A stretch of DNA of 64,000 nt from an uncultured Candidatus Saccharibacteria bacterium (GCA_964610055.1 CAZSUC010000002.1:82283-146282); one strand, 5' to 3'; counted from the first letter of the stretch, positions 3,235 through 60,228 are shown. Notes: generated by a model not told the origin, from the letters alone. Numbers and translations are program-made.

Positions 3235-3266
3235 CTGAGTTTGAAATCTGGGTACAGTGAAGGGCT

Positions 3267-4742: not shown

Positions 4743-4755
4743 GGAAAAAGAGTTT

Positions 4756-5229
4756 CTAAATATTGTCGAGCAGTGAAGGAGTCCAAGTAGGGTAATCAGT
4801 TTGATCTTCATTGTCGTGATCAGTTTGATCGTAATAGAAAGACAAGTTGTTAGTTTCGTCAGCGGTGACAAGTGTGATCGAAACTTTTAGATCATGACCA
4901 GAGTCGGTTTCGGCGGGGATAATAGTGATTGTGTGTAGTTGATCGGATTTGGTGGCGTAATAGGAGCGCATAGGGATAATAAGAAGTCGGTTCAAATAGT
5001 CTTGGGTGGTGTCAATTTCTGAAGCAATACGAATATCGGGCTCAAGACCAAGATTTAAGCTTTGAGTAGGAGCGGGAGTAATAGCAGCCGGTAAGACTTT
5101 GTTGGTATTTAGGGAAGCAAGCTGGCCGGTTTGAAATAGTTTCCAGGTAATCCAAATAGCGGCGAGAGCAGCGATGAAAAAGCAGCACAGGGCGAGAGTA
5201 AAGAAAGAAATGAAACCATGACGAGACAT
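4756..5229 (-). CDS. hypothetical membrane-anchored protein
   Basis: N-terminal TM helix (FFTLALCCFFIAALAAIWITW). No recognised domain. Confidence 0.35.
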   Translation of the reverse strand: MSRHGFISFFTLALCCFFIAALAAIWITWKLFQTGQLASLNTNKVLPAAITPAPTQSLNLGLEPDIRIASEIDTTQDYLNRLLIIPMRSYYATKSDQLHTITIIPAETDSGHDLKVSITLVTADETNNLSFYYDQTDHDNEDQTDYPTWTPSLLDNI

Positions 5230-5238
5230 AGGCTGAAA

Positions 5239-6796: not shown

Positions 6797-6858
6797 TGGT
6801 TTTACTATATCTTTGAAAGGGGATAGTTTGCCAGAGGGTGTGATATAATAAAGTTCGT

Positions 6859-8586: not shown

Positions 8587-8587
8587 T

Positions 8588-9805: not shown

Positions 9806-11294
9806 TGAAAGTCGGACTAATGGGTTAACGCTGATCGAGGTTCTGTTAGCCACGGTTATTATTGGGATTATTGCGGTAGGAGCGTCAAATTTATTTTTGC
9901 TATCTATGCGGAGTTCACAGGAGGCGGAACGAAGAGTGGTGGCGATTGCGTTAGCAAATGAACGAATGGAAATGATTAGAAATTTGCCGTATGAGAACGT
10001 CGGTACGATAGGTGGGATACCGTCAGGCGCAATTGCGCAGGCAGAGACTATCACAAGAAACTCAATCAATTATGAAGTCAAAACAGAGGTGCGATATGTA
10101 GATGACGTATATGATGGTTCGGCGAGTGGGTCAACGGAAGAGGAGGATTTTATTATAATTTGTCATATTCCACCTGGACATCCGGAAAATCAGACGACAA
10201 TTAGAGTCGCAGCTTCAGCGTTGGATGCTCATTTAGCGCATGGTGATTACACGGGAGCCTGTGGCTCTGGCGGCGGTGATGGTACTGATGAAGGAGATGA
10301 TTATAACGGAGATTATAAATTGGCGCGGGTTGAGGTTGATTGGGCGAGCCAGTATGAGACTCAACCCGTACTTTTAATGACTTATATTGCACCAAAAGGA
10401 ATTGAGGGAGGTAGTCTAAGCGGAACATTAGACTTACAGATTGCATCAGCCGAAGGAGTGGGGATTGCGGAAGCAGATGTAGAGATTATTAGCGATCAAA
10501 CTGATCCGACAATTGATATTACAACCGAAACAAATGCGGAGGGGCGAGTAGTTATGCCTGGTTTTCCGGAAATGGCAGAAGCGTACCAAGTAATAGTGCA
10601 CAAGGACGGATATACGAGCGAACAAACTTATGCTGCAACTGATGATTTTTTACCTGATGCCGAACATACAAATTTGACGATGTTGGTGCAGCAAGTGACT
10701 TCTAAGTTGCTATTTATTGATTTGGTGGCACAAGTTGAATTAAAAACAGTTGACGCTGAGGGAGTAGTGATTGGAAATGTGCCGTATCATTGGCAAGGCG
10801 AGAAAACAATTGGACAAAATATTGATGAAGAGGGAAATACGACCGATGTGTATAAATTTGATCAAGATGGAACCACGGATCAGGCTGGCATAGCTTCTTT
10901 AGAAGACTTGGAGTGGGATACATATTCTATGTCCATTCCAGCCGAGAGTGGTTATATCGTAAAAGAATATTGGCCAGTGCATCCGTTTCAGATTGATCCG
11001 GGAACAGATACCGATGTAGAAGTAGTGTTAGTGCCGTATACGGATTATTCAGTGCAAGTAACAGTATTAGATTTGACGGGGGTGCCAGTGGATAATGCAA
11101 CGGTTCGTTTGGAAAAGGATGGCTTTAGCGAAGAGAATGGGACGGGTGTACGAGGTCAAGTTATATTTACTGATTTGCCTGAATTAGGAAACTATGACTT
11201 GTTTGTCGATGTGGGCAACTATGAGACTTATTCGCAAACAGTTCAAGTGTCAGGCAATGAAACGGTACAGGTATCATTAACTCCAGTAGTCTAA
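9795..11294 (+). CDS. large pilin-like protein with a class III (prepilin) signal peptide and CarboxypepD_reg/Ig-like beta domains
   Basis: Start chosen at the internal ATG (MLFNESRTNG|LTLIEVLLATVIIGI). Prepilin signature G/LTLIE with Glu+5. C-terminal repeats such as ATVRLEKDGF...GQVIFTDLPELGNYDL resemble carboxypeptidase-regulatory-like folds. Confidence 0.7.
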   Translation: MLFNESRTNGLTLIEVLLATVIIGIIAVGASNLFLLSMRSSQEAERRVVAIALANERMEMIRNLPYENVGTIGGIPSGAIAQAETITRNSINYEVKTEVRYVDDVYDGSASGSTEEEDFIIICHIPPGHPENQTTIRVAASALDAHLAHGDYTGACGSGGGDGTDEGDDYNGDYKLARVEVDWASQYETQPVLLMTYIAPKGIEGGSLSGTLDLQIASAEGVGIAEADVEIISDQTDPTIDITTETNAEGRVVMPGFPEMAEAYQVIVHKDGYTSEQTYAATDDFLPDAEHTNLTMLVQQVTSKLLFIDLVAQVELKTVDAEGVVIGNVPYHWQGEKTIGQNIDEEGNTTDVYKFDQDGTTDQAGIASLEDLEWDTYSMSIPAESGYIVKEYWPVHPFQIDPGTDTDVEVVLVPYTDYSVQVTVLDLTGVPVDNATVRLEKDGFSEENGTGVRGQVIFTDLPELGNYDLFVDVGNYETYSQTVQVSGNETVQVSLTPVV

Positions 11295-48150: not shown

Positions 48151-50565
48151 ATGACAGAAATATACGATTTTAAGAAAATAGAGCCGAAATGGCAGGCAAA
48201 GTGGGAGGAAGCGAGTATTTTTCAAGCGCATGATTTTACGGATAAACCAAAGAAATATGTTTTGGTAGAGTTTCCGTATCCTTCTGGAGACGGTTTACAT
48301 GTGGGGCATTGTCGAAGTTATACCGCGTTAGACATAGTTGCCCGCAAGGCGCGAATGTCTGGATTTAATGTGATGTATCCGATGGGATGGGATGCGTTTG
48401 GCTTGCCGACAGAAAACTATGCCATTAAAACCGGAGTGCACCCAGCAGTGGCGACCCGAAAGAACACGGATAATTTTAGACGGCAAATGAAATCATTAGG
48501 ATTTTCGTTTGATTGGTCACGAGAAATTAATACGACTGATCCGCAGTATTACAAATGGACACAGTGGATTTTCTTAAAGTTATTAGCGGCGGGGTTAGCA
48601 TATAAGGAGAAAATGCCGATTAATTGGTGTCCGTCGTGTAAAATTGGTTTGGCAAACGAAGAAGTAGTTAATGGTGCGTGTGAGCGATGTGGGGCAGAAG
48701 TGGAACAGCGCGAGATTGAGCAATGGATGCTTAAAATTACAGCGTATGCGGATAAATTACTGGAAGGTCTGGAACAGGTGGATTTCTTGGATCGGGTAAA
48801 GGAGCAACAGCGCAATTGGATTGGGAGATCAGAAGGAGCGGAGATTGATTTTGTGGTGGGGAGTGAAAAAGTAAGCGTATATACAACTCGAATTGATACG
48901 ATATTTGGGGTGACAGCGTTGGTTTTAGCGCCGGAACATGCATTGGTCAAACAATGGTTGGATAAAATTGAGAATCGTAAGGAAGTGGAGGAATATATTA
49001 ACCAGACACGCAAGAAATCAGAATTTGAGCGCAAAGAAACAATACAAGAGAAAACAGGAGTGGAGTTGAAAGGGATTCGGGCAATTAATCCGTTTACGCA
49101 AGATGAAGTGCCGGTTTGGATAGGTGATTACGTGATAGCAAGTTATGGATCGGGAGCAGTAATGATGGTGCCGGCGCATGATGAGCGGGACTTTGCATTT
49201 GCGCGCCAATATAATGTGCCGATTAAAATGGTAGTGAAATCAGAAAAACATTTAGATAATGAAGTGATGGATGCGGCTTTTACGGCGGATGGGGTGTTAG
49301 TTAATTCCGGAGAGTTCTCAGGGCAAAAAAGCCAAACTGCTCGAGACAATATGATAAACTGGGTTGAGCAAAATGGGTGTGGTCGGAAACGCATACAGTA
49401 TCATTTGCGTGACTGGGTGTTTTCTCGGCAACATTATTGGGGCGAGCCGATACCAGTAGTTTATTGTGAGCAATGCGGAATTGTGCCAGTTCCGGCAGCT
49501 GAATTACCGGTAACTTTACCAGAAGTGGAGAGATATGAGCCAACAGATACAGGAGAATCGCCGTTAGCGAGCATAGATGACTGGGTCAAGACGTCGTGTC
49601 CAAAGTGTGGTGGCGAGGCGAAACGAGAAACAGACACTATGCCGAACTGGGCAGGGTCAAGTTGGTATTTTTTACGATACATTGATCCGAAAAATGATGA
49701 GATGTTAGCGGATCCACAGAAATTAAAGTATTGGTTACCGGTTGATGTCTATAACGGAGGGATGGAGCATACTACTTTGCATTTACTGTATTCTCGTTTT
49801 TGGAATCAATTTTTATACGATCAGGGTATAGTGCCGGTCAGTGAGCCGTATGCTAAAAGAACTTCGCACGGTATGGTTTTAGGCGAAGGTGGGATTAAGA
49901 TGTCAAAATCGCGTGGTAATGTAATTAATCCGGATGATGTGGTGGCAGAGTACGGAGCTGATACATTAAGAACATATGAAATGTTTATGGGTCCATTTGA
50001 TGGGGCTAATGCGTGGAGTACGGACGGGATTGCAGGAGCGTCGCGATGGTTACGACGAGTTTGGGATTTAATAACAACAAGTGAGATTGGAACTGAAATG
50101 AACGAATCGTGGCAGTTGCGGATGCATGAAAGTATAAAACGAGTTACGGAGGCAATTGATCAGTTTAAATTTAACACGATAGTATCGGCTTTGATGGAAT
50201 GGTTGAATGCTTTAGAAAAACAAGAAGGCCAGAGCCGAGTAGAATTAGAGACATATGTTATTTTATTAGCACCATTGGCGCCTCATATTGCGGAAGAACT
50301 GTGGGAGTTTTTGGGGCATAAAGATTTAGTTGCAACGCAAGCTTGGCCAAAATATGAGGAGGAAATTTTAAAAAGCGGTTTAGTAACGCTAGCAATTCAG
50401 GTGAATGGTAAATTGCGTGGCAAATTAGAGTTAGAGCGTGGTGTCAAACAAGCAGACGTAGTGAAAGCAGCACAAGCCTTACCAAATGTAGCTAAATATT
50501 TAACGGGGGGGAAAGTAAAGAAAGAGATTTTTGTACCGGACAGGCTGATCAATTTTGTTGGTTAA
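48151..50565 (+). CDS. leuS: leucine--tRNA ligase
   Basis: HVGHCRSYT (HIGH), KMSKSRGNV and editing-domain motifs. 804 aa. Confidence 0.95.
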   Translation: MTEIYDFKKIEPKWQAKWEEASIFQAHDFTDKPKKYVLVEFPYPSGDGLHVGHCRSYTALDIVARKARMSGFNVMYPMGWDAFGLPTENYAIKTGVHPAVATRKNTDNFRRQMKSLGFSFDWSREINTTDPQYYKWTQWIFLKLLAAGLAYKEKMPINWCPSCKIGLANEEVVNGACERCGAEVEQREIEQWMLKITAYADKLLEGLEQVDFLDRVKEQQRNWIGRSEGAEIDFVVGSEKVSVYTTRIDTIFGVTALVLAPEHALVKQWLDKIENRKEVEEYINQTRKKSEFERKETIQEKTGVELKGIRAINPFTQDEVPVWIGDYVIASYGSGAVMMVPAHDERDFAFARQYNVPIKMVVKSEKHLDNEVMDAAFTADGVLVNSGEFSGQKSQTARDNMINWVEQNGCGRKRIQYHLRDWVFSRQHYWGEPIPVVYCEQCGIVPVPAAELPVTLPEVERYEPTDTGESPLASIDDWVKTSCPKCGGEAKRETDTMPNWAGSSWYFLRYIDPKNDEMLADPQKLKYWLPVDVYNGGMEHTTLHLLYSRFWNQFLYDQGIVPVSEPYAKRTSHGMVLGEGGIKMSKSRGNVINPDDVVAEYGADTLRTYEMFMGPFDGANAWSTDGIAGASRWLRRVWDLITTSEIGTEMNESWQLRMHESIKRVTEAIDQFKFNTIVSALMEWLNALEKQEGQSRVELETYVILLAPLAPHIAEELWEFLGHKDLVATQAWPKYEEEILKSGLVTLAIQVNGKLRGKLELERGVKQADVVKAAQALPNVAKYLTGGKVKKEIFVPDRLINFVG

Positions 50566-50587: not shown

Positions 50588-53500
50588 ATGCCTACCTATA
50601 ATCGGCAAGCTTCGTTGCGACTACGATATCGAAGTAGTGGGTGGCGCGAAGTGTTGCCAAGTGTGCGTGGTTTAGCAACGATTATTTTAGTTGTGTCGTT
50701 AGTTGTAGGGGCGTGGCGATGGATTACTCAGCCGGCTGGGGTAGTAGCGTTACAGTTTACACCACATACGATTGGGAGCATGCCGGGATTGAGAGGAGTT
50801 TTGATTAAAGATGTTGATGGTGATGAACAGACAGATATTGTGACGGCAAGCCAGTACGGAGTTAAAGTTTGGCGTCAGACGGAGGCTTGGAAATTTGAGT
50901 GGACGCTAGTAACGGACAAGGATTCAGAACGAGTCTATGCTGATGATTTGGATGAAGATGGTGATGTTGATTTATTGATTACATATGCGAGTAGTACAAC
51001 CGGAGCGGAATGGTTTGAAAATTTGGGTGAGATGGAATTTACTGATCATCCTTTAACTGGTTGCGGAAAACAGGCAGTGGCAGCCATAGGAGATATTGAT
51101 GGAGATGGAAGTAAGGATATGGTTACAGCTGGTTCGTCGGGAGATAAACGAATATTAATACGATGGATCAATGACGGATCAGGCTCGTTTACAAAGACAC
51201 AATTAAGTGCCGACAGTGGAGTTAAGGCGGTCGCGATCGGAGATTTAGATGATGATGGATATAACGATATTGTGACTGGTGGCTCTCAGGGTTTGCAGCG
51301 CTGGGACACAGAAGATGGGTATAGCTGGACACGTAAGGATATTCAGGATGATCAAGAAGATCAGATTAGTTTAGATATTGCAAAAGATGAGTCGCAAGAA
51401 GATGTAGTGATTGGAGGAGTGGACGGAAGTGCGGTTAAATTATTTCGTTCAAATCAATATAATACGCAGACAATAAGTGAAGACGTAGACGGGAAAACTG
51501 TAGTGTTGGTGGATATGAATAATGACACTTATTTAGATGCAGTGGTGGCAGCACAAGATGATAATGAAGTTTATTGGTATCGAAATACGGGGGATGGAGA
51601 GTATGAGCGAGAGACCTTAGCTGCTGGGCTGCAGAGCGTATATGGAGTGGCCGTGGGGGATATTGATGGTGATGACGATTTGGATTTTGTGACAGGAGAT
51701 TTGTATGAGGGGGATATTCAAGTTTATGAGCGAACACGAACGGAGCCAGTGGCAGAAAAGCCCAGCAGTATTCAGCAAAGCACGAATGGATCCGGTTTAG
51801 TGACATTTGACGTAAAAGTGTCGGATGAAGATTATGATGAGACGCGCTTACGGGTACAATATTCAACTGATGGGGTTAGTTGGGATAAGCCTTGGATTAC
51901 AAAGATTAGTACTGATAATGGCGAAGCCGATATCATTAATCGAAATGGATTTCAAGTTGGAACAAGTGATGGGATTGATACAGATACAAATGATGACGTA
52001 ACGGTAACGTTTACATGGGATACAAAATCTATTCTGAATACAGGAGGCGCTTTAACCGGGGAATACACTAAGGTGTGGTTACGGGCTTTGCCCCGAGATG
52101 ATTACAGTACGGGAACGCATGCAGTGAGCGATGTTTTCGTGGTGGATAACCAGGCTCCCACCGGAGTGGGGGGATTAAAGATAGTATCTTTCACGAATGG
52201 CTCGGCAAGTATGAGTTGGAATAAACCGGCTGACAGTAGTAAGTATACTTATACAATTTATTACGGGACGGATAGTGCGGCAGTTTTAGATAAGGAATCG
52301 GATGTGTGGGATGGAGAAGACGATGAAAGAATGGATAAGACTGATACGTTGGATACGGTGATTACGGGATTGAAATCAAATACCGCGTATACGTTTAAGC
52401 TCTATGTAACGGATATCTATGGGAATGAAACAGCTGCTTCAAGTGTACGAGGAACTTCGCAAACGGTGACAGGTAGTGTTACACCAACACCGACCAGTAC
52501 AACTGCAACTGGAACGCCAACACCAACACCAAAAGAAACGACAGTACAGAGCGCGACACCGGCGGTAGAAGCAACGCCAACGTCAACCCCAGTGCCAACA
52601 TCGGTAAAATTACCAAGCACTTTGGAAGATAATCGAGCACCGGTGGCGGACGCGGGAACGGATCAAGTGGTGAATCCGAAAGCGTTAGTTGTATTAGATG
52701 GGTCAGCATCTTATGACCCGGATGTTGGCGATACTGGTTCATTAAGTTATCGTTGGCGTCAATTAAGTGGATCGGCGGTTAAATTACAATCAGCATCAAC
52801 TTCGCAAGCCTCTTTGGTGGCGGGGAGTGAAAATGATTCGTATGTATTCGCTTTGACGGTTAGCGATACGATGGGGGCTTCAGCGACTGATACGGTAACA
52901 GTGGCGGTAAGAGCTTTAGCAACTGAAAGCACAGTGCCGATTGCAGTGGGTGGTGAAACGTCGCCTGTACCAACGCAATTACCAGAGCCAGAAGAAACTG
53001 AACCGGCTTTTGTACGCCACGTGCTTAAGCCGGCGGATATTGTGTTGTTTATTCTGTCAGTATTATCAACTTTAGTGTTAGTAATTGAGCGTATTTTGCG
53101 ATCTTGGAATAGTCGAACTAATCGAGTTCCGCGTGCGGTGCTAGGGGGAGGTCGGGACAGTTTACAAGGGAAAGTGATTCATTATAAAACGGGAGAGCCA
53201 ATTGTAGGGGCACGCATAATGATTTATGACGGAGAGGGTAAATTGCGAGCAACAGAAGTAACAACTGATCAAGGTACGTTCCCAACATTTTTCCCGGCTG
53301 GACAATATACTTTAGGTGTTAAGATGACTGGATTTACATTTGCGCCGGCGGCAAAAGCCGTTGTGCCAGAAAATAGTATTGTTTATAGTGGCGGTAAGTT
53401 AACAGTGCAAGATCCGAATCAACCGCTTTCGATTGTGATTCCTATGAAGCCAACGGCGGGAGAAGTATCGTCAATGCGAGTACAAGTTTTGCATGCATGG

Positions 53501-53980
53501 CAATCGGTGCAGCGATGGGGAAGAATGTTGTCTTGGCCGTTATTCTTAGCTGGTTCATTGCTAAATACAGCCTTAATTTTTATTGTGCCATCGCTTTCAT
53601 ATTTGGCATTAGAAGGGTTGTATATAGGTTTGATTATTGCGAAGATTGCGTTAGAAGTGAGGATGCGTCCAGCGTATGGGTTAGTTAGAGACGCGATTAC
53701 GCATGTGTCATTAGATTTAGCAGTGGTACGATTATTAGAACAAAAAACAAATCGATTAGTGATGACGCGAGTAACAAATAGTCAGGGAAAGTTTTTTGCC
53801 TTACCGCCCGCAGGAGTATATCGAGTAACAGTAACAAAGCCGGGATATGCGAGTTTTAGTCGAGATGATGTTGAAATTAAATCGGAGCATGATACAACAT
53901 TGCAAATGACAGCTGATTTAATGCCGATTGCTCCGCAAACGACGCGAGGATTGGTAGGCGCGCGAGCAGCAGTGTTGTAA
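50588..53980 (+). CDS. giant polytopic surface protein: N-terminal anchor, FG-GAP beta-propeller, FN3, T/P-rich linker, PKD-like domain, then TM helices alternating with two CarboxypepD_reg-like domains
   Basis: Seven FG-GAP-like repeats (DVDGDEQTDIVTAS, DLDEDGDVDLLIT, GDIDGDGSKDMVTAG, GDLDDDGYNDIVTGG...). FN3-like segment APTGVGGLKIVSFTNGSASMSWNKP...YTFKLYVTDIYGNE. PKD-like segment ADAGTDQVVNP...LDGSASYDPDVG...SYRWRQLSG. TM helices near aa 820 and aa 985-1030. GKVIHYKTGEPIVGARIMIYD and NSQGKFFALPPAGVYRVTVTKPGY are CarboxypepD_reg-like. Confidence 0.55.
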   Translation: MPTYNRQASLRLRYRSSGWREVLPSVRGLATIILVVSLVVGAWRWITQPAGVVALQFTPHTIGSMPGLRGVLIKDVDGDEQTDIVTASQYGVKVWRQTEAWKFEWTLVTDKDSERVYADDLDEDGDVDLLITYASSTTGAEWFENLGEMEFTDHPLTGCGKQAVAAIGDIDGDGSKDMVTAGSSGDKRILIRWINDGSGSFTKTQLSADSGVKAVAIGDLDDDGYNDIVTGGSQGLQRWDTEDGYSWTRKDIQDDQEDQISLDIAKDESQEDVVIGGVDGSAVKLFRSNQYNTQTISEDVDGKTVVLVDMNNDTYLDAVVAAQDDNEVYWYRNTGDGEYERETLAAGLQSVYGVAVGDIDGDDDLDFVTGDLYEGDIQVYERTRTEPVAEKPSSIQQSTNGSGLVTFDVKVSDEDYDETRLRVQYSTDGVSWDKPWITKISTDNGEADIINRNGFQVGTSDGIDTDTNDDVTVTFTWDTKSILNTGGALTGEYTKVWLRALPRDDYSTGTHAVSDVFVVDNQAPTGVGGLKIVSFTNGSASMSWNKPADSSKYTYTIYYGTDSAAVLDKESDVWDGEDDERMDKTDTLDTVITGLKSNTAYTFKLYVTDIYGNETAASSVRGTSQTVTGSVTPTPTSTTATGTPTPTPKETTVQSATPAVEATPTSTPVPTSVKLPSTLEDNRAPVADAGTDQVVNPKALVVLDGSASYDPDVGDTGSLSYRWRQLSGSAVKLQSASTSQASLVAGSENDSYVFALTVSDTMGASATDTVTVAVRALATESTVPIAVGGETSPVPTQLPEPEETEPAFVRHVLKPADIVLFILSVLSTLVLVIERILRSWNSRTNRVPRAVLGGGRDSLQGKVIHYKTGEPIVGARIMIYDGEGKLRATEVTTDQGTFPTFFPAGQYTLGVKMTGFTFAPAAKAVVPENSIVYSGGKLTVQDPNQPLSIVIPMKPTAGEVSSMRVQVLHAWQSVQRWGRMLSWPLFLAGSLLNTALIFIVPSLSYLALEGLYIGLIIAKIALEVRMRPAYGLVRDAITHVSLDLAVVRLLEQKTNRLVMTRVTNSQGKFFALPPAGVYRVTVTKPGYASFSRDDVEIKSEHDTTLQMTADLMPIAPQTTRGLVGARAAVL

Positions 53981-54043: not shown

Positions 54044-54730
54044 ATGAAAGCAGTTGTTTTAATGGCCGGGAAAGGCACGAGAATGGCTAAATATTATGAA
54101 GGTCCAAAGCAACTTTTGCCTGTGCAAGGTAAGCCGGTAGTTGAGCACGCCTTAGATATGTTGCCAGCAGAAATTGAGAGTCTTGTGTTTGTGGTGGGAG
54201 GACCACATGAACAAACGATTCGAGAGTATTTTAAAGCTGGTGAGTATGGTGGTCGTCCAATTGAATTTGTACAGCAAAAAGAACAATTAGGGTTAGCGCA
54301 TGCGTTTAAGACAGCTGCTCATTTATTGGAAGGACGTTGGTTGGGAATGGTTGGTGATGATATTTTTGGACCAGAGGGGATGAAGAGTTTGGTAAAAGAA
54401 CCTTTGTCAGTGTTAGCGTCACGAGTACCGAATCCACAGAATTTTGGTGTATTAGTAACGGATGAAAATGGTTATTTAGTGAAGTCAGTTGAAAAGCCCC
54501 AAGAGTTTATTTCTGATTTAGCTTGGAATGGGGCGATGGTGATGGATGAATCGTTTTTTGAATTAGAGGTAGCGCCGTCAGCGCGAGGTGAGTACGAAAC
54601 GCCAGATGTCTGGATGAAGATGATTACTGATAGAAAAGCGCAGATTAAAGTGGTGGAGGCTGATTTTTGGTTGCCAATCAATGATAAAGACCAGCTAGAA
54701 GAAGCAGAAAGAATTTTGGCGGAGAAATAG
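54044..54730 (+). CDS. sugar-phosphate nucleotidyltransferase (NTP_transferase family)
   Basis: MKAVVLMAGKGTRM (the G-x-G-T-R motif), 228 aa. Confidence 0.7.
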   Translation: MKAVVLMAGKGTRMAKYYEGPKQLLPVQGKPVVEHALDMLPAEIESLVFVVGGPHEQTIREYFKAGEYGGRPIEFVQQKEQLGLAHAFKTAAHLLEGRWLGMVGDDIFGPEGMKSLVKEPLSVLASRVPNPQNFGVLVTDENGYLVKSVEKPQEFISDLAWNGAMVMDESFFELEVAPSARGEYETPDVWMKMITDRKAQIKVVEADFWLPINDKDQLEEAERILAEK

Positions 54731-54746: not shown

Positions 54747-56066
54747 TTAAGCGCGGCCAACAGAGTGATAAACAAAGCCGCGCTTTTCCATGTCGGTCGG
54801 ATCAAACATATTGCGGCCATCAACAATAATAGGGCTGGTTAACATTTGGCTAACTTTATCCCAGTCTGGTTCTTTGAATTCATCCCAGTCAGTGAGAATA
54901 ACAAGAGCGTCTGCGCCTTTAAGGGCATCATATTTATCAGTAACGTACGTGACTTGATCACCAATAACCTCTTGGGCAGTAACACGTGCTTCAGGATCGT
55001 AAGCTTGCAGCAAGGCGCCGTCGTGGTGGAGTTGTTTAACAATATCAATGGAGGGAGCATTGCGCATGTCATCGGTGTTGGCTTTGAAAGCTAGTCCCCA
55101 GATGGCAATGGTTTTGCCTTTAGTGACCCAAAGCGCTTGCTCGATTTTTTGCAGAAAGAGCTGTTTAGCTTGTTCATTGATTTGAGCAACTTCTTTTAAA
55201 AGGCCAAAGCCATAACCTAGTTCTTCGGAAATGGTAATAAAAGCAGAAACGTCTTTCGGAAAGCAGGAACCGCCATAACCAACTCCGGCTTTTAAGAAAT
55301 GAGAGCCAATACGTTTGTCGGAGCCCATACCGGCAACAACTTGATCAATGTTAGCGCCAGATAATTCACAGATTCGAGCCAAAGCATTAGCAAAAGAGAT
55401 CTTGGTGGCTAGAAATGAGTTGCTGGCATGTTTGATTATCTCGGCGCTTTTAACGTCAGTGACAATGAAGGGTGCGTTAATGGGAGCATAGATTTCGCGC
55501 ATAATTTTTTCGGCGCGAGGATTGTCGACGCCAACTACGACGCGATCTGGCTTGAGAAAATCTTCAATAGCCGAACCTTCGCGTAAGAATTCAGGGTTGC
55601 TAACAACGTCAAAATCAATGCCACGCTTGTTGTATCGAGCAATAGTTTCGCTAACACGTTCGCCGGTTTGGACTGGAACAGTGCTTTTGTCGACAACAAC
55701 TTTATAGCTATCAGCGACTTCAGCGATTTCACGTGCGGCTCCAGCAACGTAAGAAAGGTCAGCTCGGCCGTTGGCCTGAGGCGGAGTATTAACAGCAATG
55801 AAAATCACATCAGAAGCTGCAACAGCATCTTTAAGACTGGTAGTGAATGAAAGGCGTTTGGCTTTGACATTTTTTAGAACCAATTCTTTGAGTCCAGGCT
55901 CGTAAATTGGAATAGTGCCTTCTTTAAGACGGTCAATTTTTTGTTTGTTATTATCAACTAAAATGACAGTGTGGCCGATTTCGGCTAAACAAGTACCGGA
56001 TACGAGACCAACATAACCGGCGCCAATGAAGGCTAATTTGTGAGTGCGATGTGTTTGGTTTGACAT
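54747..56066 (-). CDS. ugd: UDP-glucose 6-dehydrogenase
   Basis: Start placed at the internal ATG (MSNQTHRTHKLAFIGAGYVGLVSG NAD-binding motif). Catalytic GGSCFPKD. 439 aa. Confidence 0.9.
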   Translation of the reverse strand: MSNQTHRTHKLAFIGAGYVGLVSGTCLAEIGHTVILVDNNKQKIDRLKEGTIPIYEPGLKELVLKNVKAKRLSFTTSLKDAVAASDVIFIAVNTPPQANGRADLSYVAGAAREIAEVADSYKVVVDKSTVPVQTGERVSETIARYNKRGIDFDVVSNPEFLREGSAIEDFLKPDRVVVGVDNPRAEKIMREIYAPINAPFIVTDVKSAEIIKHASNSFLATKISFANALARICELSGANIDQVVAGMGSDKRIGSHFLKAGVGYGGSCFPKDVSAFITISEELGYGFGLLKEVAQINEQAKQLFLQKIEQALWVTKGKTIAIWGLAFKANTDDMRNAPSIDIVKQLHHDGALLQAYDPEARVTAQEVIGDQVTYVTDKYDALKGADALVILTDWDEFKEPDWDKVSQMLTSPIIVDGRNMFDPTDMEKRGFVYHSVGRA

Positions 56067-56133
56067 AAGAGAAAAATAGTTGATGAATGTATAAAAGTCA
56101 AAATGGTTTTCTAAATACAGTATACTAAAGAGG

Positions 56134-57309
56134 ATGCATATGCACATCCAACCGGCACCGCGATTTTGGGGGTGCGCGTTTAGTTTAACGGCCAAGCGTC
56201 AAATTAGGGAATTATATGCCTTTTTGGCGATTTTTTCGTTGGCTTTGGCGATGATTACAGTTTTTGAGCCGATTTTTTTCTATCAACTTGGATTCTCAGT
56301 TAGCAAAATTTTAGGATATTATGCTTTGCACTATAGTGCATATGTTTTATTGATGCCGTGGGGAGCAAAGTTTGCGGCACGGTTTGGTTATGAAAAATCA
56401 TTAGTTGTTTCCACGCCAATTTTGGCAATTTATTTTTTAGTCTTAGCAAGTTTGCCAGCAAGACCCGAATTATTTTGGGTGGCGTTTGTATTGTTAGCAG
56501 CACATAAGTCATTTTATTGGCCGGCATATCATGCAACTTTCATGGCATATTCGGTAGACGGAAATCGAGGAACAGAGCAGGGATGGCAAAGATTAATTAT
56601 TTATGGGATCGGAATAATTGGTCCGTTAGCTGGTGGAGTTGTAATTACTTGGTTTGGATTTCCGGTGTTATTTGTGATTGTGGCAGGAACGTTGGCGTTG
56701 GCTGGTATACCTTTATTAAGAACACGAGAAAAGCAAAGTGGTCGGACGTTGTCTTATAATGCTGCGTGGGAAATAGCAAAACGTCCAAGTGAACGCCGAT
56801 TACGTTGGTCAACCATTGGATGGGCAGAACATTTAGTGCATACCGTGATATGGCCGATTTGGTTATTTATGGTGTTAGAGAGTGCAGATATGTTAGGTTT
56901 GGTAGTTTCGATTAGCGTGGCTATTATGACGGTGTGGGGGTTTGTGGTAGGAGAATTAGCGGACCGGCGGACGCCGAGACAGGTTTTGCAATGGGGAGCG
57001 GTTGGCTTGGCCGGGACTTATATAATCAGAGCTGTGTCAGGAACTCCAATTAGTGTCATTGGTGCCGACGTGCTGGCTCGTGTCGGGAACACGTCGATGG
57101 AAGTGCCGTTGTTAGCCAGATTATATAAGTTGGGCAAACAAAAAGGAGCTTTGAAATATGCCTTAACGTTCGAAACGTTGCTGGCAGTGGCGAAAGCGGC
57201 GATGGCGATTATATTGTTAGTAATGTTTTGGTGGTTGCCGTCGTCGACAGCATTTGTGATGGCATTTGCTTTAGCTGGGGTAGCTGCGTTGTTTTATCGC
57301 GCTTTATAA
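56134..57309 (+). CDS. MFS-type transporter
   Basis: About 12 predicted TM helices and an MFS-like loop (GAKFAARFGYEKS). It is divergent from ugd. Confidence 0.6.
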   Translation: MHMHIQPAPRFWGCAFSLTAKRQIRELYAFLAIFSLALAMITVFEPIFFYQLGFSVSKILGYYALHYSAYVLLMPWGAKFAARFGYEKSLVVSTPILAIYFLVLASLPARPELFWVAFVLLAAHKSFYWPAYHATFMAYSVDGNRGTEQGWQRLIIYGIGIIGPLAGGVVITWFGFPVLFVIVAGTLALAGIPLLRTREKQSGRTLSYNAAWEIAKRPSERRLRWSTIGWAEHLVHTVIWPIWLFMVLESADMLGLVVSISVAIMTVWGFVVGELADRRTPRQVLQWGAVGLAGTYIIRAVSGTPISVIGADVLARVGNTSMEVPLLARLYKLGKQKGALKYALTFETLLAVAKAAMAIILLVMFWWLPSSTAFVMAFALAGVAALFYRAL

Positions 57310-57791: not shown

Positions 57792-57804
57792 AATACTTAA
57801 TTAG

Positions 57805-57888
57805 TGCCGAAGGTGGGACTTGAACCCACATGAGTGTAAACTCACACGATTTTGAGTCGTGCGCGTCTGCCAGTTCCGCCACTTCGGC
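57805..57888 (-). tRNA. tRNA-Leu (anticodon CAA)
   Basis: The reverse complement gives GCCGAAGTGGCGGAACTGGCAGACGCGCACGACTCAAAATCGTG(long variable arm)GTGGGTTCAAGTCCCACCTTCGGCA. It has a 7-bp acceptor stem, GTTCAAGTC T-loop, anticodon loop CTCAAAA and a long variable arm, for 84 nt in total. Confidence 0.85.
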
Positions 57889-57988: not shown

Positions 57989-58753
57989 ATGCCTGAAGTT
58001 TTAGCAATCGTTAATCAAAAAGGGGGCGTAGGTAAAACTACGACGAGTGTTAATTTGGGCAGTTATTTAGCAGAAGCAGGTAAGCAAGTGGTGGTCATTG
58101 ATATGGATCCGCAAGGAAATGCTTCTTCTAGCTTAGGGGCTAAGTTAGGCGAAAATGATCCGTCGGTGTATGAGGTGTTGATTGGCCAGAAGACGGCAGC
58201 TGATGCTATTTATGAAACTAATCAAAAAAATCTGTATATTATTCCAGCTGTGCCGGATTTAGTTGGGGCTGGGATTGAATTGATGGATCAAACTTATCGC
58301 GAATATCGTTTACGACGAGCGGTGAAAACAATTTTGCCGCATTTTGATTTTGTTTTAATTGATTGTCCTCCGAGTTTAGGATTGTTGACTGTAAACGCGT
58401 TAGCAGCGGCGCACAAAGTGTTGATTCCTGTGCAGTGTGAATATTATGCCTTAGAAGGATTGCATCAGCTGCTCAATACAATTGAAATGGTGCGACAGCA
58501 TTTAAATCCGCAAATCCAGGTGTTGGGGGCAGTATTGACAATGTATGATCGCAGAACGGCTTTTTCTCGAAAAATTGTTAAGGAAGTGCGACGAACTTTT
58601 CCAGGATATGTCTTTGATAGTGTGATTCCGCGAAATACAGAATTAGCGGAAGCGCCGGCGAGCGGCAAAACTATTTTGGAATATGCTCGGCATTCACGCG
58701 GGGCGAGAGCGTATGAATATTTATCAGAAGAAATCTTAAACTTATATCTATGA
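57989..58753 (+). CDS. parA: chromosome partitioning ATPase ParA/Soj
   Basis: IVNQKGGVGKTTTSVNLG deviant Walker A. Confidence 0.9.
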   Translation: MPEVLAIVNQKGGVGKTTTSVNLGSYLAEAGKQVVVIDMDPQGNASSSLGAKLGENDPSVYEVLIGQKTAADAIYETNQKNLYIIPAVPDLVGAGIELMDQTYREYRLRRAVKTILPHFDFVLIDCPPSLGLLTVNALAAAHKVLIPVQCEYYALEGLHQLLNTIEMVRQHLNPQIQVLGAVLTMYDRRTAFSRKIVKEVRRTFPGYVFDSVIPRNTELAEAPASGKTILEYARHSRGARAYEYLSEEILNLYL

Positions 58754-60228
58754 CACCATTAGGAAGGGGGCTAGCGTCATTGATTCCGCGGCGGGAGCCG
58801 CAGGAGGCGGATGATATGCTGGCGCAAATTGATTCAGTGGAGGAATTTGAAGGGCAAGAGCCCAAGATTGTGACAGAGCTAAAAGAAAGAGAGGCAGCGC
58901 GAACAGAAGAAAAAGCAGAAGTTAATAAAGTAGAAGTTGAAGCGACCGTGCGAGCGGCGCGACCGAAGCGGTTAGATGTGGTTGAAGAAGAGGAAGCAGA
59001 TGTGATGGAAGCAGAAACAGAGAATGAGAATGAAGAGGAAGGCGACGATATTTTTGCTGAGATTGAACAGGACGAGATTGATGAAGAAGAGCAAGAAGAA
59101 CTGAAAGAAGATGATGAACTTAGTCATGTGGATGATGATGTATTGGAATTTGAAGTTATAGACGAAGAGGATGAAGACGAAGAAGAACCAGAAGAGGAAT
59201 CAAGTGAAGAAGTTGAAGAAGATGAGAGTGACGAAGAAGACGAAGATGATTCTGATTGGAATAATGATGAGAGTGAAGACGTTGAAGAAGAAAAGGAGAA
59301 TGTACGAGAAGAAATGGTGGCAGAAATGAAAGAAGGCGCGTTCACATCTGAACCAGAAGATGGAGTCAAGCATTTGTTAGGTGAGAAGGTGGAATATATT
59401 CCAGTCGGCAATATTGCTGTAAATCCTTTGCAACCTCGATATCGATTTGATGATCATGAATTAGAAGATTTGAAACGATCGATTGATCAGCACGGATTAT
59501 TGCAACCATTAGTAGTTAATGTGCGTGATGATGGGTCGTATCAATTAGTAGCAGGTGAGCGGCGGTTGCGCGCGGTTAAACAGTTGGGATGGAGAGAAGT
59601 TCCTTGTGTGATACGAAGTGATATTGCGGGTGATCGGAATCGTTTGGAATTGGCATTAATTGAAAATGTGCAGCGTTCTAATTTGAATCCGATTGAAGAG
59701 GCAATGGGATACCAGCGCTTGAATGAAGAGTATGGCATGACCCACGAAGAGATTGGAGAAAGAGTAGGACGCAGTCGAGTGGGTATAACAAATATTATTC
59801 GGGTATTGCAGTTACCGGCTGAGATTCAGCGTGGATTGATTGAGGGAAAAATTTCAATTGGGCATGCTCGGGCGATTTTAATGATTCCGGACGAGGAAAA
59901 GCAAATTAGATTTTATCATCATGTTGTTGATGAAGGATTGACTGTGCGCAAAGCGGAGAATCGGGCGCGTCGTATTCAGCGAACAATGAAATTGAATGAT
60001 CCGTTAAGGCAAAAGACTCGAGGGCGAGCGCCATTAGCGGTTAAGTATGACGGGCCGTTACAGGATAAGTTTGGTTATAACGCACGGATTAAGTTTGATA
60101 CCACGAAAAATCGTTATGAAATTGTTTTTCATGCGTTTAGTGAAAACGAAGCGGAAGACTTGATTAGTAAATTGTTATCAGGACAAGGACTGCCGGAAGA
60201 ATTAGACGAAGACGTGATTGAAGGGTAA
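58750..60228 (+). CDS. parB: chromosome partitioning protein ParB with an approximately 300-aa N-terminal extension that includes a long poly-acidic tract
   Basis: The C-terminal 200 aa has the ParB box (LLQPLVVNVRDDGSYQLVAGERRLRA), an HTH motif and a dimerisation domain. Residues roughly 60-200 are D/E-rich low complexity (EEDEDEEEPEEESSEEVEEDESDEEDEDDSDW). Confidence 0.85.
   Translation: MTPLGRGLASLIPRREPQEADDMLAQIDSVEEFEGQEPKIVTELKEREAARTEEKAEVNKVEVEATVRAARPKRLDVVEEEEADVMEAETENENEEEGDDIFAEIEQDEIDEEEQEELKEDDELSHVDDDVLEFEVIDEEDEDEEEPEEESSEEVEEDESDEEDEDDSDWNNDESEDVEEEKENVREEMVAEMKEGAFTSEPEDGVKHLLGEKVEYIPVGNIAVNPLQPRYRFDDHELEDLKRSIDQHGLLQPLVVNVRDDGSYQLVAGERRLRAVKQLGWREVPCVIRSDIAGDRNRLELALIENVQRSNLNPIEEAMGYQRLNEEYGMTHEEIGERVGRSRVGITNIIRVLQLPAEIQRGLIEGKISIGHARAILMIPDEEKQIRFYHHVVDEGLTVRKAENRARRIQRTMKLNDPLRQKTRGRAPLAVKYDGPLQDKFGYNARIKFDTTKNRYEIVFHAFSENEAEDLISKLLSGQGLPEELDEDVIEG

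What the first reader, a model, noticed from the sequence alone, without database searches (positions are those of the whole stretch)
50588..53980. 1130-aa polytopic surface protein combining FG-GAP propeller, FN3, PKD and two CarboxypepD_reg domains separated by TM helices
The architecture is unusual. A signal-anchor is followed by a roughly 350-aa FG-GAP, integrin-alpha-like beta-propeller with Ca-binding D-x-D-x-D-G loops, an FN3-like domain, a T/P-rich probable O-glycosylation linker, a PKD-like domain and a TM helix near residue 825. After that comes a CarboxypepD_reg-like domain, two or three further TM helices, and a second CarboxypepD_reg-like domain. This implies beta-sandwich domains on both sides of the membrane, or a re-entrant topology. 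It might be a host- or cell-attachment protein relevant to an epibiotic lifestyle.
Basis: partly seen in the sequence, partly recalled or inferred. Interest (0 to 1): 0.55.

Follow-up and report, generated by a model that had tools for sequence, protein, structure and literature searches.

The report
Surface protein on a CPR membrane module
This 1130-residue protein from an Andersenbacteria-like ultrasmall bacterium carries a calcium-loop propeller and a stalk outside the cell, mounted on a conserved but uncurated three-helix membrane module whose two small beta-sandwich domains most likely face the cytoplasm; the module is widespread in CPR bacteria and is the real core of the gene.

Summary
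Pfam and AlphaFold2 give: TM1, a 7-bladed FG-GAP propeller with six Ca-loop motifs, an unlisted beta-sandwich (393-520), FN3, a T/P linker, PKD, TM2, a transthyretin-like (TTL, CarboxypepD_reg) sandwich, a 2-TM hairpin and a second TTL sandwich. The hydrophobic segments are confident helices, not buried strands.

Positive-inside statistics over about 100 relatives, plus ectodomain-less relatives, put both TTL domains in the cytoplasm: four TM passes, N-in and C-in, not re-entrant.

About 40 full-length orthologs (41-51 % identity) occur in Candidatus Andersenbacteria, not Saccharibacteria. In the same syntenic slot (LeuRS - X - NTP-transferase - UDPG dehydrogenase - MFS), X can be 1130, 550, 464, 407 or 302 aa. 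The shortest is the membrane module alone, so the module is the conserved core and the ectodomain is an add-on.

A profile search finds the module (TM - TTL - hairpin with a WP..G..NT..P..E..Y..K signature - TTL) in hundreds of CPR proteins with very different adhesin-type ectodomains. In Uhrbacteria-type genomes it sits beside a Pam-pilin-like gene and a WxLIP-like gene. No Pfam or NCBIfam model covers the hairpin, and I found no paper describing it.

Function is inferred: a surface lectin or adhesin on a conserved CPR membrane platform.

The parts
50588..53980 (+). Whole ORF, 1130 aa, including the stop codon
   Evidence: an identical protein is on record on two contigs
50669..50725 (+). TM1 (residues ~28-46): signal-anchor or uncleaved signal sequence, preceded by an Arg-rich N-tail (6 R in residues 1-27)
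   Evidence: hydropathy 2.23; AF2 helix 19-47. Whether it is cleaved after 'VVA' (residue 54) was not testable
50756..51733 (+). 7-bladed FG-GAP beta-propeller (residues 57-382) with six Ca-loop motifs
   Evidence: Pfam FG-GAP_3 6.8e-26; 28 strands, block pLDDT mostly ~85-94 with a dip to 65-80 in the fifth blade (~250-300); motif count 6 against 0.14 expected; Foldseek to ITFG2 TMt 0.63 and PVL lectin TMt 0.52
51764..52147 (+).
   Evidence: AF2 pLDDT 90-97, no Pfam hit at E<=1; many invariant columns
52172..52456 (+). FN3-like beta-sandwich (residues 529-623)
   Evidence: Pfam fn3 1.4e-4, below cutoff; AF2 sandwich; fn3 hits in orthologs
52466..52627 (+). Disordered Thr/Pro-rich linker (residues 627-680)
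   Evidence: 18 T, 10 P, 6 S of 54 residues; pLDDT in the 30s
52640..52912 (+). PKD domain, K319L-like (residues 685-775)
   Evidence: Pfam 3.5e-17; AF2
53030..53092 (+). TM2 (core residues ~815-835; helix 807-844), crossing from outside to inside and followed by RILRSWNSRTNRVPR
   Evidence: hydropathy 2.45; AF2 helix, pLDDT 86-95 over the hydrophobic core; positive-inside 36:5 across the family
53162..53452 (+). Transthyretin-like / CarboxypepD_reg domain 1 (residues 859-955), inferred cytoplasmic
   Evidence: Pfam CarbopepD_reg_2 5.4e-8; AF2. The Foldseek hit to 5aq0 (TMt 0.90) covers one of the two sandwiches; which one was not determined
53471..53533 (+). Amphipathic, Arg-rich juxtamembrane helix (residues 962-982; W971 and Q972 invariant among the 39 orthologs)
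   Evidence: AF2 helix 963-999; conservation
53534..53659 (+). TM3-TM4 hairpin (983-1001 and 1003-1024) with signature W-P-x4-G-x3-N-T-x6-P-x7-E-x2-Y-x6-K; uncurated
   Evidence: hydropathy; AF2 pLDDT >90; conserved in 35 distant members: P984 31, G989 33, N993 28, E1009 27, Y1012 35, K1019 23; no Pfam or NCBIfam model
53672..53920 (+). Transthyretin-like / CarboxypepD_reg domain 2 (residues 1029-1111), inferred cytoplasmic; the best-conserved part of the protein, followed by a conserved DLMPxAP tail
   Evidence: Pfam 1.5e-17; AF2; conservation
48151..50565 (+). Upstream neighbour, leucyl-tRNA synthetase; 22-nt gap; conserved synteny
   Evidence: 14 of 17 close loci
54044..54730 (+). Downstream neighbour, sugar-phosphate nucleotidyltransferase (NTP_transferase); 63-nt gap; conserved synteny
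   Evidence: 16 of 17 close loci

Best explanation
The gene encodes a four-pass membrane protein of an Andersenbacteria-like CPR bacterium.

Shown or strongly supported:
- An Arg-rich N-tail and TM1 export about 760 residues.
- The exported part is a distal 7-bladed FG-GAP propeller with six Ca-loop motifs, followed by a stalk: an unannotated beta-sandwich, FN3, a 54-residue T/P linker and PKD.
- TM2 returns the chain to the cytoplasm.
- There a transthyretin-like (TTL) sandwich, an interfacial amphipathic helix, a tight TM3/TM4 hairpin and a second TTL sandwich form a conserved module.
- This module, not the ectodomain, is the conserved core of the gene. It is a CPR-wide family element attached to many different adhesin-type ectodomains, or to none.

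Inferred:
- The propeller acts as a Ca-dependent lectin- or adhesin-like binding head, held away from the membrane.
- The module acts as a stable membrane platform. Its intramembrane polar set (N993/T994, E1009, Y1012, K1019) and its cytoplasmic TTL domains mediate self-association or docking to a conserved partner.
- That would physically link a variable surface ligand-binder, or in other CPR lineages a pilus-like surface complex, to the membrane and cytoplasm.
For: Anatomy:
- Pfam.
- AF2 of the module: pLDDT 84.9, with helices 807-844, 962-999 and 1003-1024 flanking two sandwiches.
- AF2 of the full length: 7 blades plus four sandwiches.
- Ca-loop motifs: 6 against 0.14 expected.
- The propeller resembles ITFG2 and the GlcNAc-binding integrin-like lectin PVL.
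- One sandwich of the module matches the carboxypeptidase D TTL domain at TMt 0.90; no solved structure matches the whole module, TMq <= 0.28.

Topology:
- Hairpin loop median 6 residues with 0.42 K/R, against 2.9 and 3.1 K/R on its flanks, n = 124.
- TM2 flanks 36:5 in favour of positive charge after the helix, net charge +2.0 against +0.27.
- Ectodomain-less members have 0 K/R before the first helix and 1-5 after.

The module is the core of the gene:
- Positional orthologs of 1132, 550, 464, 407 and 302 aa sit in the same slot, LeuRS-X-NTP_transferase-UDPG_DH-MFS.
- The 302-aa form overlaps the LeuRS stop by 4 nt.
- The highest conservation lies in residues 960-1116.

Family:
- Profile search: 13,199 hits at E <= 1e-3 and 804 at E <= 1e-30.
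- 124 of 161 proteins inspected carry the module, mostly within ~30 residues of the C-terminus, in proteins of 200-3557 aa.
- Ectodomains include fn3, SdrD_B, SpaA, Big_5, PKD, DUF4215, FG-GAP, LDL-receptor propeller and BNR.
- Lineages: Andersen-, Uhr-, Magasanik-, Falkow- and Buchananbacteria, and Paceibacter.
- The hairpin signature is kept in distant members.

Link to surface-structure assembly in other CPR:
- 40-42 of 63 distant loci have the order Pam-pilin-like gene, WxLIP-like TM-anchored gene, module gene, giant protein.
- The Pam system itself is described in bioRxiv 10.64898/2026.03.03.709456.
Against: - No experiment supports any of this. The topology rests on the positive-inside rule and AF2 helices only, and no dedicated topology predictor was available.
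- CarboxypepD_reg / TTL domains are, from general knowledge, mostly extracytoplasmic, so a cytoplasmic location is unusual.
- No ligand, partner or oligomeric state is known.
- Module-only orthologs show that the module has a function independent of any adhesin, and that function is unidentified.
- The window (64 kb) contains no Pam-like or WxLIP-like gene, so the pilus link may not apply to this organism.
- The conserved neighbours may reflect frozen gene order in a small genome and not shared function.
- The Pam hits of the neighbour genes are far below the curated cutoffs: 52 against 240 bits, and 34 against 55 bits.
Confidence: 0.55

Rival explanations
1. Envelope-glycopolymer factor. The membrane module works with the flanking sugar-nucleotide genes (NTP-transferase, UDP-glucose dehydrogenase, MFS), for example as a membrane scaffold or export and attachment factor for a cell-surface polysaccharide or glycolipid. 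The propeller would be a lectin that binds or organises that polymer outside the cell.
For: - Tight, co-directional order LeuRS-X-NTP_transferase with 9-63-nt gaps, followed by UDPG_DH and MFS. This is conserved from the 1130-aa form to the 302-aa form and down to about 35-40 % module identity.
- No promoter- or terminator-like sites in the flanking gaps.
- The module-only orthologs need an ectodomain-independent function.
- The propeller resembles a GlcNAc-binding lectin.
- An NTP_transferase-glycosyltransferase fusion also lies near the minimal member P0141.
Against: - The same block also holds RarA, LeuRS and ParAB, which are plainly unrelated functions. Synteny may simply be conservative gene order.
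- In Uhrbacteria-type genomes the module sits in a completely different operon with no sugar genes.
- The module has no glycosyltransferase or polymerase signature.
Confidence: 0.15
2. Outside-in sensor. The ectodomain is a ligand sensor, and the TM2/hairpin bundle transmits binding to the cytoplasmic TTL domains, which signal to an unknown effector. This would resemble integrin-style or one-component-receptor-style signalling.
For: - There are folded domains on both sides of the membrane.
- Intramembrane polar residues are conserved.
- A conserved interfacial helix precedes TM3.
- The head is integrin-alpha-like.
Against: - There is no recognisable output domain: no kinase, cyclase, HTH or similar.
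- The sequence of TM2 is poorly conserved.
- Ectodomain-less orthologs would have nothing to sense.
- No signalling genes lie nearby.
Confidence: 0.1
3. Alternative topology. The two CarboxypepD_reg domains are extracellular like most members of that Pfam family, because TM2 or the hairpin does not span the membrane as inferred. The protein would then be a conventional, wholly external adhesin with a C-terminal anchor.
For: - From general knowledge, CarboxypepD_reg / TTL domains are overwhelmingly extracytoplasmic.
- The closest solved folds are extracellular: carboxypeptidase D, CnaB, SdrD and pilins.
- No topology predictor or experiment was available.
Against: - Three independent charge-bias tests all put the flanks of TM2, TM3 and TM4 that adjoin the TTL domains on the K/R-rich side.
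- Ectodomain-less members have no signal-peptide-like n-region.
- The 3-6-residue hairpin loop cannot place the two TTL domains on opposite sides.
- All three segments are confident helices with 19-22-residue hydrophobic cores.
Confidence: 0.1
4. Channel or transporter. Oligomerised hairpins, with the conserved intramembrane Glu, Lys and Asn, form an ion- or substrate-conducting pore, or act as an FtsX/MacB-like mechanotransmission unit with the same TM1 - ectodomain - TM2 - TM3 - TM4 topology.
For: - E1009, K1019 and N993 are conserved inside the membrane.
- The topology is identical to FtsX/MacB-type permeases (inference).
Against: - No FtsX or any transporter family hit.
- No ABC ATPase next to the gene in any locus examined.
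- Only three TM helices per chain in the minimal forms.
Confidence: 0.05

Closest known systems
Integrin alpha subunits and other FG-GAP propeller proteins (ITFG2; Psathyrella velutina lectin PVL)
   Same: - 7-bladed FG-GAP propeller with D-x-D-x-D-G-type Ca loops, carried at the end of a stalk of Ig-like sandwiches and followed by a TM helix.
- Foldseek TMt 0.63 to ITFG2 and 0.52 to PVL.
   Different: - There is no evidence of a beta-subunit partner, thigh or calf domains, or a GFFKR tail.
- The cytoplasmic part is a 290-residue 2-TM / 2-TTL module, not a short tail.
- FG-GAP is only one of many ectodomains found on this module.
Carboxypeptidase-regulatory / transthyretin-like (CarboxypepD_reg, PF13620 and PF13715) domains, CnaB-type domains, and NOMO of the ER BOS complex
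   Same: - Both C-terminal sandwiches score above the Pfam cutoffs.
- One sandwich superposes on the TTL domain of human carboxypeptidase D: TMt 0.90, rmsd 1.6 A.
- NOMO is likewise a TTL array joined to a TM segment.
   Different: - Here the TTL domains are inferred to be cytoplasmic and are separated by a conserved 2-TM hairpin.
- No solved structure matches the helix-TTL-hairpin-TTL arrangement (TMq <= 0.28).
Pam pilus system of CPR bacteria (PamA/B pilins, TM-anchored PamC/D chaperones, TM-anchored PamR; bioRxiv 10.64898/2026.03.03.709456) and WxL / DUF916 (WxLIP) surface-complex loci of Firmicutes
   Same: - Both are monoderm surface structures anchored directly in the cytoplasmic membrane.
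- In Uhrbacteria-type genomes the module gene follows a gene with weak PamT and Pam-pilin-C similarity, and a signal-peptide + beta-rich + C-terminal-TM gene whose profile hits EfmWxLIP1 at 4e-5.
- PamR, like this protein, combines FnIII-type domains with a membrane anchor.
   Different: - None of these partner genes is in the window or in 17 Andersenbacteria-type loci.
- The Pam hits are far below the curated cutoffs.
- The Pam paper mentions neither a CarboxypepD_reg / TTL protein nor these lineages.
FtsX / MacB-type four-TM permeases
   Same: Same inferred topology: N-in, TM1, large extracytoplasmic domain, TM2, cytoplasmic segment, TM3, short outside loop, TM4, C-in.
   Different: - No sequence-family match.
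- No partner ATPase gene.
- The cytoplasmic segments are folded TTL sandwiches, not coupling helices.

Membership tests
FG-GAP / integrin-alpha-like beta-propeller | Repeated FG-GAP units scoring above the curated Pfam cutoff | tested here: met
   FG-GAP_3: 91.1 bits against 26.9, 5 stretches. FG-GAP: 39.4 bits against 22.1.
FG-GAP / integrin-alpha-like beta-propeller | Seven four-stranded blades forming a closed propeller | tested here: met
   AF2: 28 strands in residues 57-382, block pLDDT mostly ~85-94 with a dip to 65-80 around residues 250-300. Foldseek matches to FG-GAP propellers.
FG-GAP / integrin-alpha-like beta-propeller | Ca2+-binding D-x-D-x-D-G-x-x-D loops that actually bind Ca2+ | tested here: inconclusive
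   Six motif matches against 0.14 expected, and the Asp positions are invariant in orthologs. Metal binding itself cannot be tested with these tools.
Integrin alpha subunit proper | Heterodimer with a beta subunit; thigh and calf domains; short cytoplasmic GFFKR tail | tested here: not met
   The sequence after TM2 is a 290-residue module with no GFFKR. No beta-subunit-like gene is adjacent.
PKD domain (K319L-like, PF22352) | Score above the curated cutoff, and a beta-sandwich fold | tested here: met
   62.6 bits against 27. AF2 sandwich at 685-775.
Fibronectin type III (PF00041) | Score above the curated cutoff | tested here: inconclusive
   22.4 bits against 25. The fold is modelled as a sandwich, and orthologs and relatives reach fn3.
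CarboxypepD_reg / transthyretin-like domain (PF13620, PF13715) | Score above the curated cutoff, and a TTL fold | tested here: met
   64.1 bits against 32.3, and 33.2 bits against 32.2. Foldseek TMt 0.90 to 5aq0 for one of the two sandwiches.
CPR membrane module proposed here (TM - TTL - 2-TM hairpin - TTL; uncurated) | Single-stretch match to the module profile, at or near the C-terminus | tested here: met
   Window residues 855-1129 match HMM positions 4-279. 124 of 161 proteins inspected share it.
CPR membrane module proposed here (TM - TTL - 2-TM hairpin - TTL; uncurated) | Hairpin signature WP-x4-G-x3-NT-x6-P-x7-E-x2-Y-x6-K | tested here: met
   All positions are present in the window protein and conserved in both close and distant members.
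CPR membrane module proposed here (TM - TTL - 2-TM hairpin - TTL; uncurated) | Both TTL domains cytoplasmic | tested here: inconclusive
   Positive-inside statistics support it strongly, but no experiment or dedicated predictor was available.
Pam pilus system component (for example a PamR-like anchor) | Encoded in an operon with Pam pilins and PapD-like, TM-anchored chaperones | tested here: not met
   No homolog of the pilin-like or WxLIP-like neighbour families in the 64-kb window, by tblastn or by HMM. The window protein has no NCBIfam Pam hit.
Pam pilus system component (for example a PamR-like anchor) | N-terminal donor strand that inserts into a pilin | not tested
   This would need complex prediction (AF-Multimer), which is not available here.
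Sortase-anchored (LPXTG) adhesin | C-terminal LPXTG motif, then a hydrophobic stretch, then a short basic tail | tested here: not met
   The C-terminus is a folded TTL domain plus a DLMPIAP...AAVL tail. The only LPxT-like string (KLPSTLE, about residue 673) lies in the linker (sequence).
FtsX / MacB-type permease | FtsX domain match and an adjacent ABC ATPase | tested here: not met
   No Pfam or NCBIfam hit. The neighbours are LeuRS and an NTP-transferase.

The most novel reading that the evidence does not exclude
The TM - TTL - hairpin - TTL unit is a previously unrecognised membrane platform specific to CPR bacteria. It has a conserved intramembrane N/T-E-Y-K network and cytoplasmic transthyretin-like domains. 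On this reading it forms the base that anchors, and possibly helps assemble or regulate, the variable surface adhesins and Pam/WxL-like donor-strand fibres of these ultrasmall bacteria. The window protein would be its integrin-like version: a Ca-dependent lectin head physically coupled across the membrane to a cytoplasmic partner.
Probability: 0.25. Interest if true: 0.8.

Novelty: new variant of a known kind. Interest (0 to 1): 0.55.

Why it matters
- CPR/Patescibacteria are thought to live attached to other cells, yet how they mount and anchor their surface proteins without an outer membrane is largely unknown.
- This finding defines a widespread, uncurated membrane module: 804 cluster representatives at E <= 1e-30 in the profile search (a minority of the top hits are plain CarboxypepD_reg repeat arrays).
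- The module carries highly variable adhesin-type ectodomains, and in several CPR classes it is encoded next to pilin-like and chaperone-like genes.
- It appears to place transthyretin-like sandwiches, normally extracellular, in the cytoplasm.
- It gives a concrete, testable handle for studying surface-structure anchoring in CPR: a sequence signature, a predicted topology, and a natural series of positional orthologs running from module-only to 1130 aa.
- It would also improve annotation of many 'hypothetical' or 'FG-GAP / fibronectin / carboxypeptidase regulatory-like domain-containing' proteins.

Tried and rejected
- **Fusion or assembly artefact:** rejected; 39 full-length orthologs come from independent assemblies.
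- **Paralogs in the window:** none by tblastn.
- **Saccharibacteria origin:** not supported. Named orthologs are Andersenbacteria. Some third-party bins titled 'uncultured Saccharibacteria' or 'uncultured Gammaproteobacteria' carry the same CPR-type genes, and I treat those titles as unreliable.
- **A curated family for the hairpin:** none in Pfam or NCBIfam, even at E <= 1 and in minimal members. The PDB sequence profile finds only generic TTL/CnaB hits.
- **Literature:** searches for CarboxypepD_reg + Patescibacteria, 'carboxypeptidase regulatory-like' + CPR, FG-GAP + CPR, and Andersenbacteria found nothing on this protein family.
- **Pam / WxLIP partners in the window:** none.
- **First TM2 charge analysis**: it used a crude TM2 placement and gave an ambiguous result (32 against 52). 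It was redone with uncharged-core boundaries.
- **NJ tree of modules**: it suggests ectodomain gain, but it is too weak to settle the direction.

Full report
**1. Observation**

The window holds an ATG-initiated ORF at 50588..53980 (+) of 1130 aa, exactly as reported. The identical protein is on record on two independent contigs.

- FG-GAP_3: five stretches, E = 6.8e-26.
- FG-GAP: 5.3e-10.
- K319L-like PKD, residues 689-774: 3.5e-17.
- CarbopepD_reg_2, residues 859-917: 5.4e-8.
- CarboxypepD_reg, residues 1031-1108: 1.5e-17.
- fn3, residues 529-613: 22.4 bits, just under the cutoff of 25.

Kyte-Doolittle peaks lie at 22-46, 815-833, 985-1003 and 1004-1024.

AlphaFold2 was run twice: on the C-terminal 331 residues with 38 sequences (pLDDT 84.9), and on the full length with 39 sequences (pLDDT 79.3). 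The models give:
- a helix at 19-47;
- a 7-bladed propeller at 57-382 (28 strands);
- FN3 at 529-623;
- a disordered T/P linker at 627-680 (18 T, 10 P and 6 S of 54 residues);
- PKD at 685-775;
- a helix at 807-844;
- a sandwich at 861-955;
- helices at 963-999 and 1003-1024;
- a sandwich at about 1029-1111.

Six nine-residue Ca-loop motifs occur in the propeller, roughly one per blade, against 0.14 expected from shuffles.

**2. The hydrophobic segments are helices, and the topology**

It fails. In the module-only AF2 model, all three C-terminal segments are long helices whose hydrophobic cores have 10-residue-block pLDDT of 86-97. They have uncharged cores of 19-22 residues.

I tested topology with the positive-inside rule across divergent relatives, not on the single sequence:
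- In 124 family members the TM3-TM4 loop is short (median 6 residues) and nearly free of K/R (mean 0.42). The 15 residues before TM3 carry 2.9 K/R and the 15 after TM4 carry 3.1 K/R.
- For TM2, with uncharged-core boundaries, K/R after the helix exceeds K/R before it in 36 of 48 members and is lower in 5. Net charge is +2.0 after against +0.27 before.
- Five relatives with no ectodomain start directly with the TM2-equivalent helix. They have 0 K/R before it and 1-5 after. For example, P0164 begins MIMID, then the TM helix, then GRVRKKTR. This is the signature of an N-out/C-in helix, not of a signal-anchor that would export what follows.

All three tests place both CarboxypepD_reg (transthyretin-like, TTL) sandwiches in the cytoplasm. 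The inferred topology is N-in, TM1, about 760-residue ectodomain, TM2, TTL1 (in), amphipathic helix, TM3/TM4 hairpin, TTL2 (in). This is inference from sequence statistics and models. No experiment or dedicated predictor was available.

**3. Who has it, and what is conserved**

A word-indexed search found about 40 full-length orthologs (41-51 % identity, 1085-1170 aa) with the same architecture. The few that are named are Candidatus Andersenbacteria. A scan of species-representative genomes agrees. The organism is therefore an Andersenbacteria-like member of the CPR/Patescibacteria, not a Saccharibacterium.

In the 39-sequence alignment the best-conserved stretch is 960-1116, that is, the hairpin and TTL2. 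The sequence of TM2 is poorly conserved.

The decisive result is positional. The gene order is RarA - LeuRS - X - NTP_transferase - (UDP-glucose dehydrogenase on the opposite strand) - MFS - ParA/ParB. It is conserved, but X varies:

| Form of X | Length | Content | Source |
|---|---|---|---|
| Window gene | 1130 aa | full ectodomain + module | window |
| P0035 | 1132 aa | full ectodomain + module | |
| P0136 | 550 aa | PKD + module | |
| P0138 | 464 aa | PKD + module | |
| P0139 | 407 aa | ~60-aa ectodomain + module | |
| P0164 | 302 aa | module only; start overlaps the LeuRS stop by 4 nt | |

In 17 close loci the neighbours NTP_transferase, LeuRS, MFS and UDPG-DH recur in 16, 14, 14 and 14 loci. 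The conserved core of this gene is therefore the three-helix / two-TTL membrane module. The propeller-FN3-PKD ectodomain is a lineage-specific addition.

A rough NJ tree places the complete short forms basal to the long clade. That fits gain of the ectodomain, but I do not regard the direction as settled.

**4. A CPR-wide family**

I searched a profile of TTL1 + hairpin + TTL2 (280 positions) exhaustively against 1.84 billion cluster representatives. It gave 13,199 hits at E <= 1e-3 and 804 at E <= 1e-30. Some of the strongest hits are plain CarboxypepD_reg repeat arrays.

Of the 161 proteins I could inspect, 124 carry the module in one stretch, mostly within about 30 residues of the C-terminus. 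They range from 200 to 3557 aa, and the typical layout is signal or anchor - variable ectodomain - TM - module.

The ectodomains of 45 diverse members include fn3 (16), SdrD_B, SpaA, Big_5, PKD, DUF4215, FG-GAP (3), an LDL-receptor-type propeller, BNR, DUF11 and Big_2. This is an adhesin-like repertoire.

Named genomes with distant members are Uhr-, Magasanik-, Falkow- and Buchananbacteria, Paceibacter and 'Parcubacteria/Patescibacteria group'.

The hairpin carries a signature that survives in the 35 most divergent members:

| Residue | Conserved in |
|---|---|
| W983 | 21/35 |
| P984 | 31/35 |
| G989 | 33/35 |
| N993 | 28/35 |
| T/S994 | 29/35 |
| P1001 | 25/35 |
| E1009 | 27/35 |
| Y1012 | 35/35 |
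| K1019 | 23/35 |

These are conserved polar and charged residues inside the membrane. That argues for a specific helix-helix or partner interaction and against a passive anchor.

No Pfam or NCBIfam model covers this element. One of the two sandwiches superposes on the TTL domain of human carboxypeptidase D (TMt 0.90), but no solved structure matches the whole module (TMq <= 0.28). Four literature searches found no description of the family.

**5. Context in other CPR lineages (a lead, not part of the window)**

In 40-42 of 63 distant loci the module gene lies in a co-directional cluster of four genes:
- a signal-peptide protein of about 300 aa;
- a protein of about 307 aa with a signal peptide, a beta-rich body and a C-terminal TM helix plus a basic tail;
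- the module protein (about 900-1150 aa);
- a protein of 1000-1800 aa with no Pfam hit.

The first has weak, sub-threshold NCBIfam matches to 'CPR-type pilus protein PamT' (4.8e-14, 52 against 240 bits) and to 'Pam pilus system pilin subunit' (2.7e-8, 34 against 55 bits). A profile of the second hits the solved Enterococcus faecium WxL-interacting protein EfmWxLIP1 at 4e-5. Its layout also matches the description of the TM-anchored PamC/D chaperones in the 2026 preprint that defined the Pam pilus (bioRxiv 10.64898/2026.03.03.709456).

That paper does not mention TTL / CarboxypepD_reg proteins or these lineages. Neither partner family has a homolog in the 64-kb window or in the Andersenbacteria-type loci. 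The lead suggests that the module family serves as a membrane base for surface structures in CPR. It does not show that the window protein does.

**6. How it most likely works**

Shown:
- the domain anatomy;
- the helical membrane segments;
- conservation of the module, its wide distribution and its variable ectodomains;
- the positional ortholog series.

Strongly inferred: cytoplasmic TTL domains and a 4-TM, N-in/C-in topology.

Inferred function, with confidence about 0.55 for the package:
- The propeller is a Ca-dependent lectin- or adhesin-type head. Its nearest propeller-sized structural matches are ITFG2 and the GlcNAc-binding integrin-like lectin PVL.
- The head sits on a stalk with a flexible T/P linker.
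- The module is a stable membrane platform that self-associates or docks to a conserved partner through the hairpin's polar network and the TTL domains.

Rivals:
- **Envelope-glycopolymer synthesis or export** with the flanking sugar-nucleotide genes (0.15). This is attractive because module-only orthologs keep that neighbourhood. It is weakened because the same block holds unrelated housekeeping genes and because other lineages use a different context.
- **Outside-in sensor** (0.10). There is no output domain.
- **External TTL domains** (0.10). This is contradicted by three charge-bias tests.
- **Channel or FtsX-like unit** (0.05). There is no family match and no ATPase.

**7. Comparison, novelty and score**

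The ectodomain is a known kind of bacterial surface protein. The individual folds are all known.

What is new is the anchoring module:
- its probable cytoplasmic TTL domains;
- its conserved intramembrane signature;
- its breadth across CPR;
- the natural series from a bare module to an 1130-aa integrin-like protein at one locus.

I rate this a new variant of a known kind, with interest 0.55. It is a solid and moderately surprising structural-genomic finding with a testable topology, but no function has been demonstrated.

The most novel reading still open is that the module is the conserved base that anchors or assembles CPR surface adhesins and Pam/WxL-like fibres. I give that about 0.25 probability, and it would deserve about 0.8 interest if true.

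Noticed in passing
Loci L023-L085, e.g. L033:1685-2674, 2676-3551, 3589-6798, 6819-9935; L078; L030: In Uhrbacteria, Magasanikbacteria, Falkowbacteria and Buchananbacteria-type genomes there is a conserved four-gene cluster. Gene 1 is a ~300-aa secreted protein with weak PamT / Pam-pilin-C similarity. Gene 2 is a ~307-aa signal-peptide + beta-rich + C-terminal-TM protein whose profile hits EfmWxLIP1 (PDB 9i25, 4e-5). Gene 3 is the module-bearing protein. Gene 4 is a 1000-1800-aa protein with no Pfam hit. This may be a distant Pam/WxL-like surface-fibre system in lineages the Pam preprint does not cover.
   Followed up: partly
window 1-64000: GC skew is very strong and uniformly positive: +0.14 to +0.40 in every 2-kb bin, with cumulative skew rising monotonically. 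27 of the 34 ORFs of at least 250 aa are on the + strand. There is no skew switch in the window, although ParA/ParB (57989-60228) lie here.
   Followed up: no
window 51764-52147 (residues ~393-520): A confident beta-sandwich (pLDDT 90-97) with many invariant residues and an Asp-box-like 'YSTDGVSW' motif.
   Followed up: partly
window 54747-56195 (-) and 56134-57309 (+): As listed, the UDP-glucose dehydrogenase ORF (TTG start, 482 aa) overlaps the divergent MFS-like ORF by 62 nt. Orthologs are 438-473 aa. The true start is probably the internal Met just before 'SNQTHRTHKLAFIGAGYVG', about 40 residues downstream.
   Followed up: no
window 57804-57888 (-): A single tRNA-Leu (CAA) lies between the MFS-like gene and ParA. 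It is the only tRNA in the 64 kb, and it is about 7 kb downstream of the leucyl-tRNA synthetase gene.
   Followed up: no
P0141 in L005:4253-4810; L005:9092-12810: The minimal family member (185 aa: one 2-TM hairpin plus one TTL domain) is encoded a few kb from an array of nine tandem T4SS_pilin (PF18895) genes, and near an NTP_transferase-glycosyltransferase fusion.
   Followed up: no
Distant family members P0172, P0176, P0183, P0204, P0231 and others; L023, L031, L034, L037: Distant members carry a recurrent motif at the cytoplasmic end of the TM2-equivalent helix, 'QLPYLL-RLWQGLLGLLGF(R/K)'. In some the module is followed by 100-250 further residues, or they show several TTL hits, which suggests repeated [hairpin-TTL] units.
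   Followed up: no
Loci L008-L010, L017-L019, L021, L023, L026-L028 and others: Many third-party-assembled bins titled 'uncultured Candidatus Saccharibacteria' or 'uncultured Gammaproteobacteria' carry genes and operons otherwise seen only in Andersenbacteria or Uhrbacteria-type CPR genomes. These record titles look like unreliable placeholder taxonomy.
   Followed up: no
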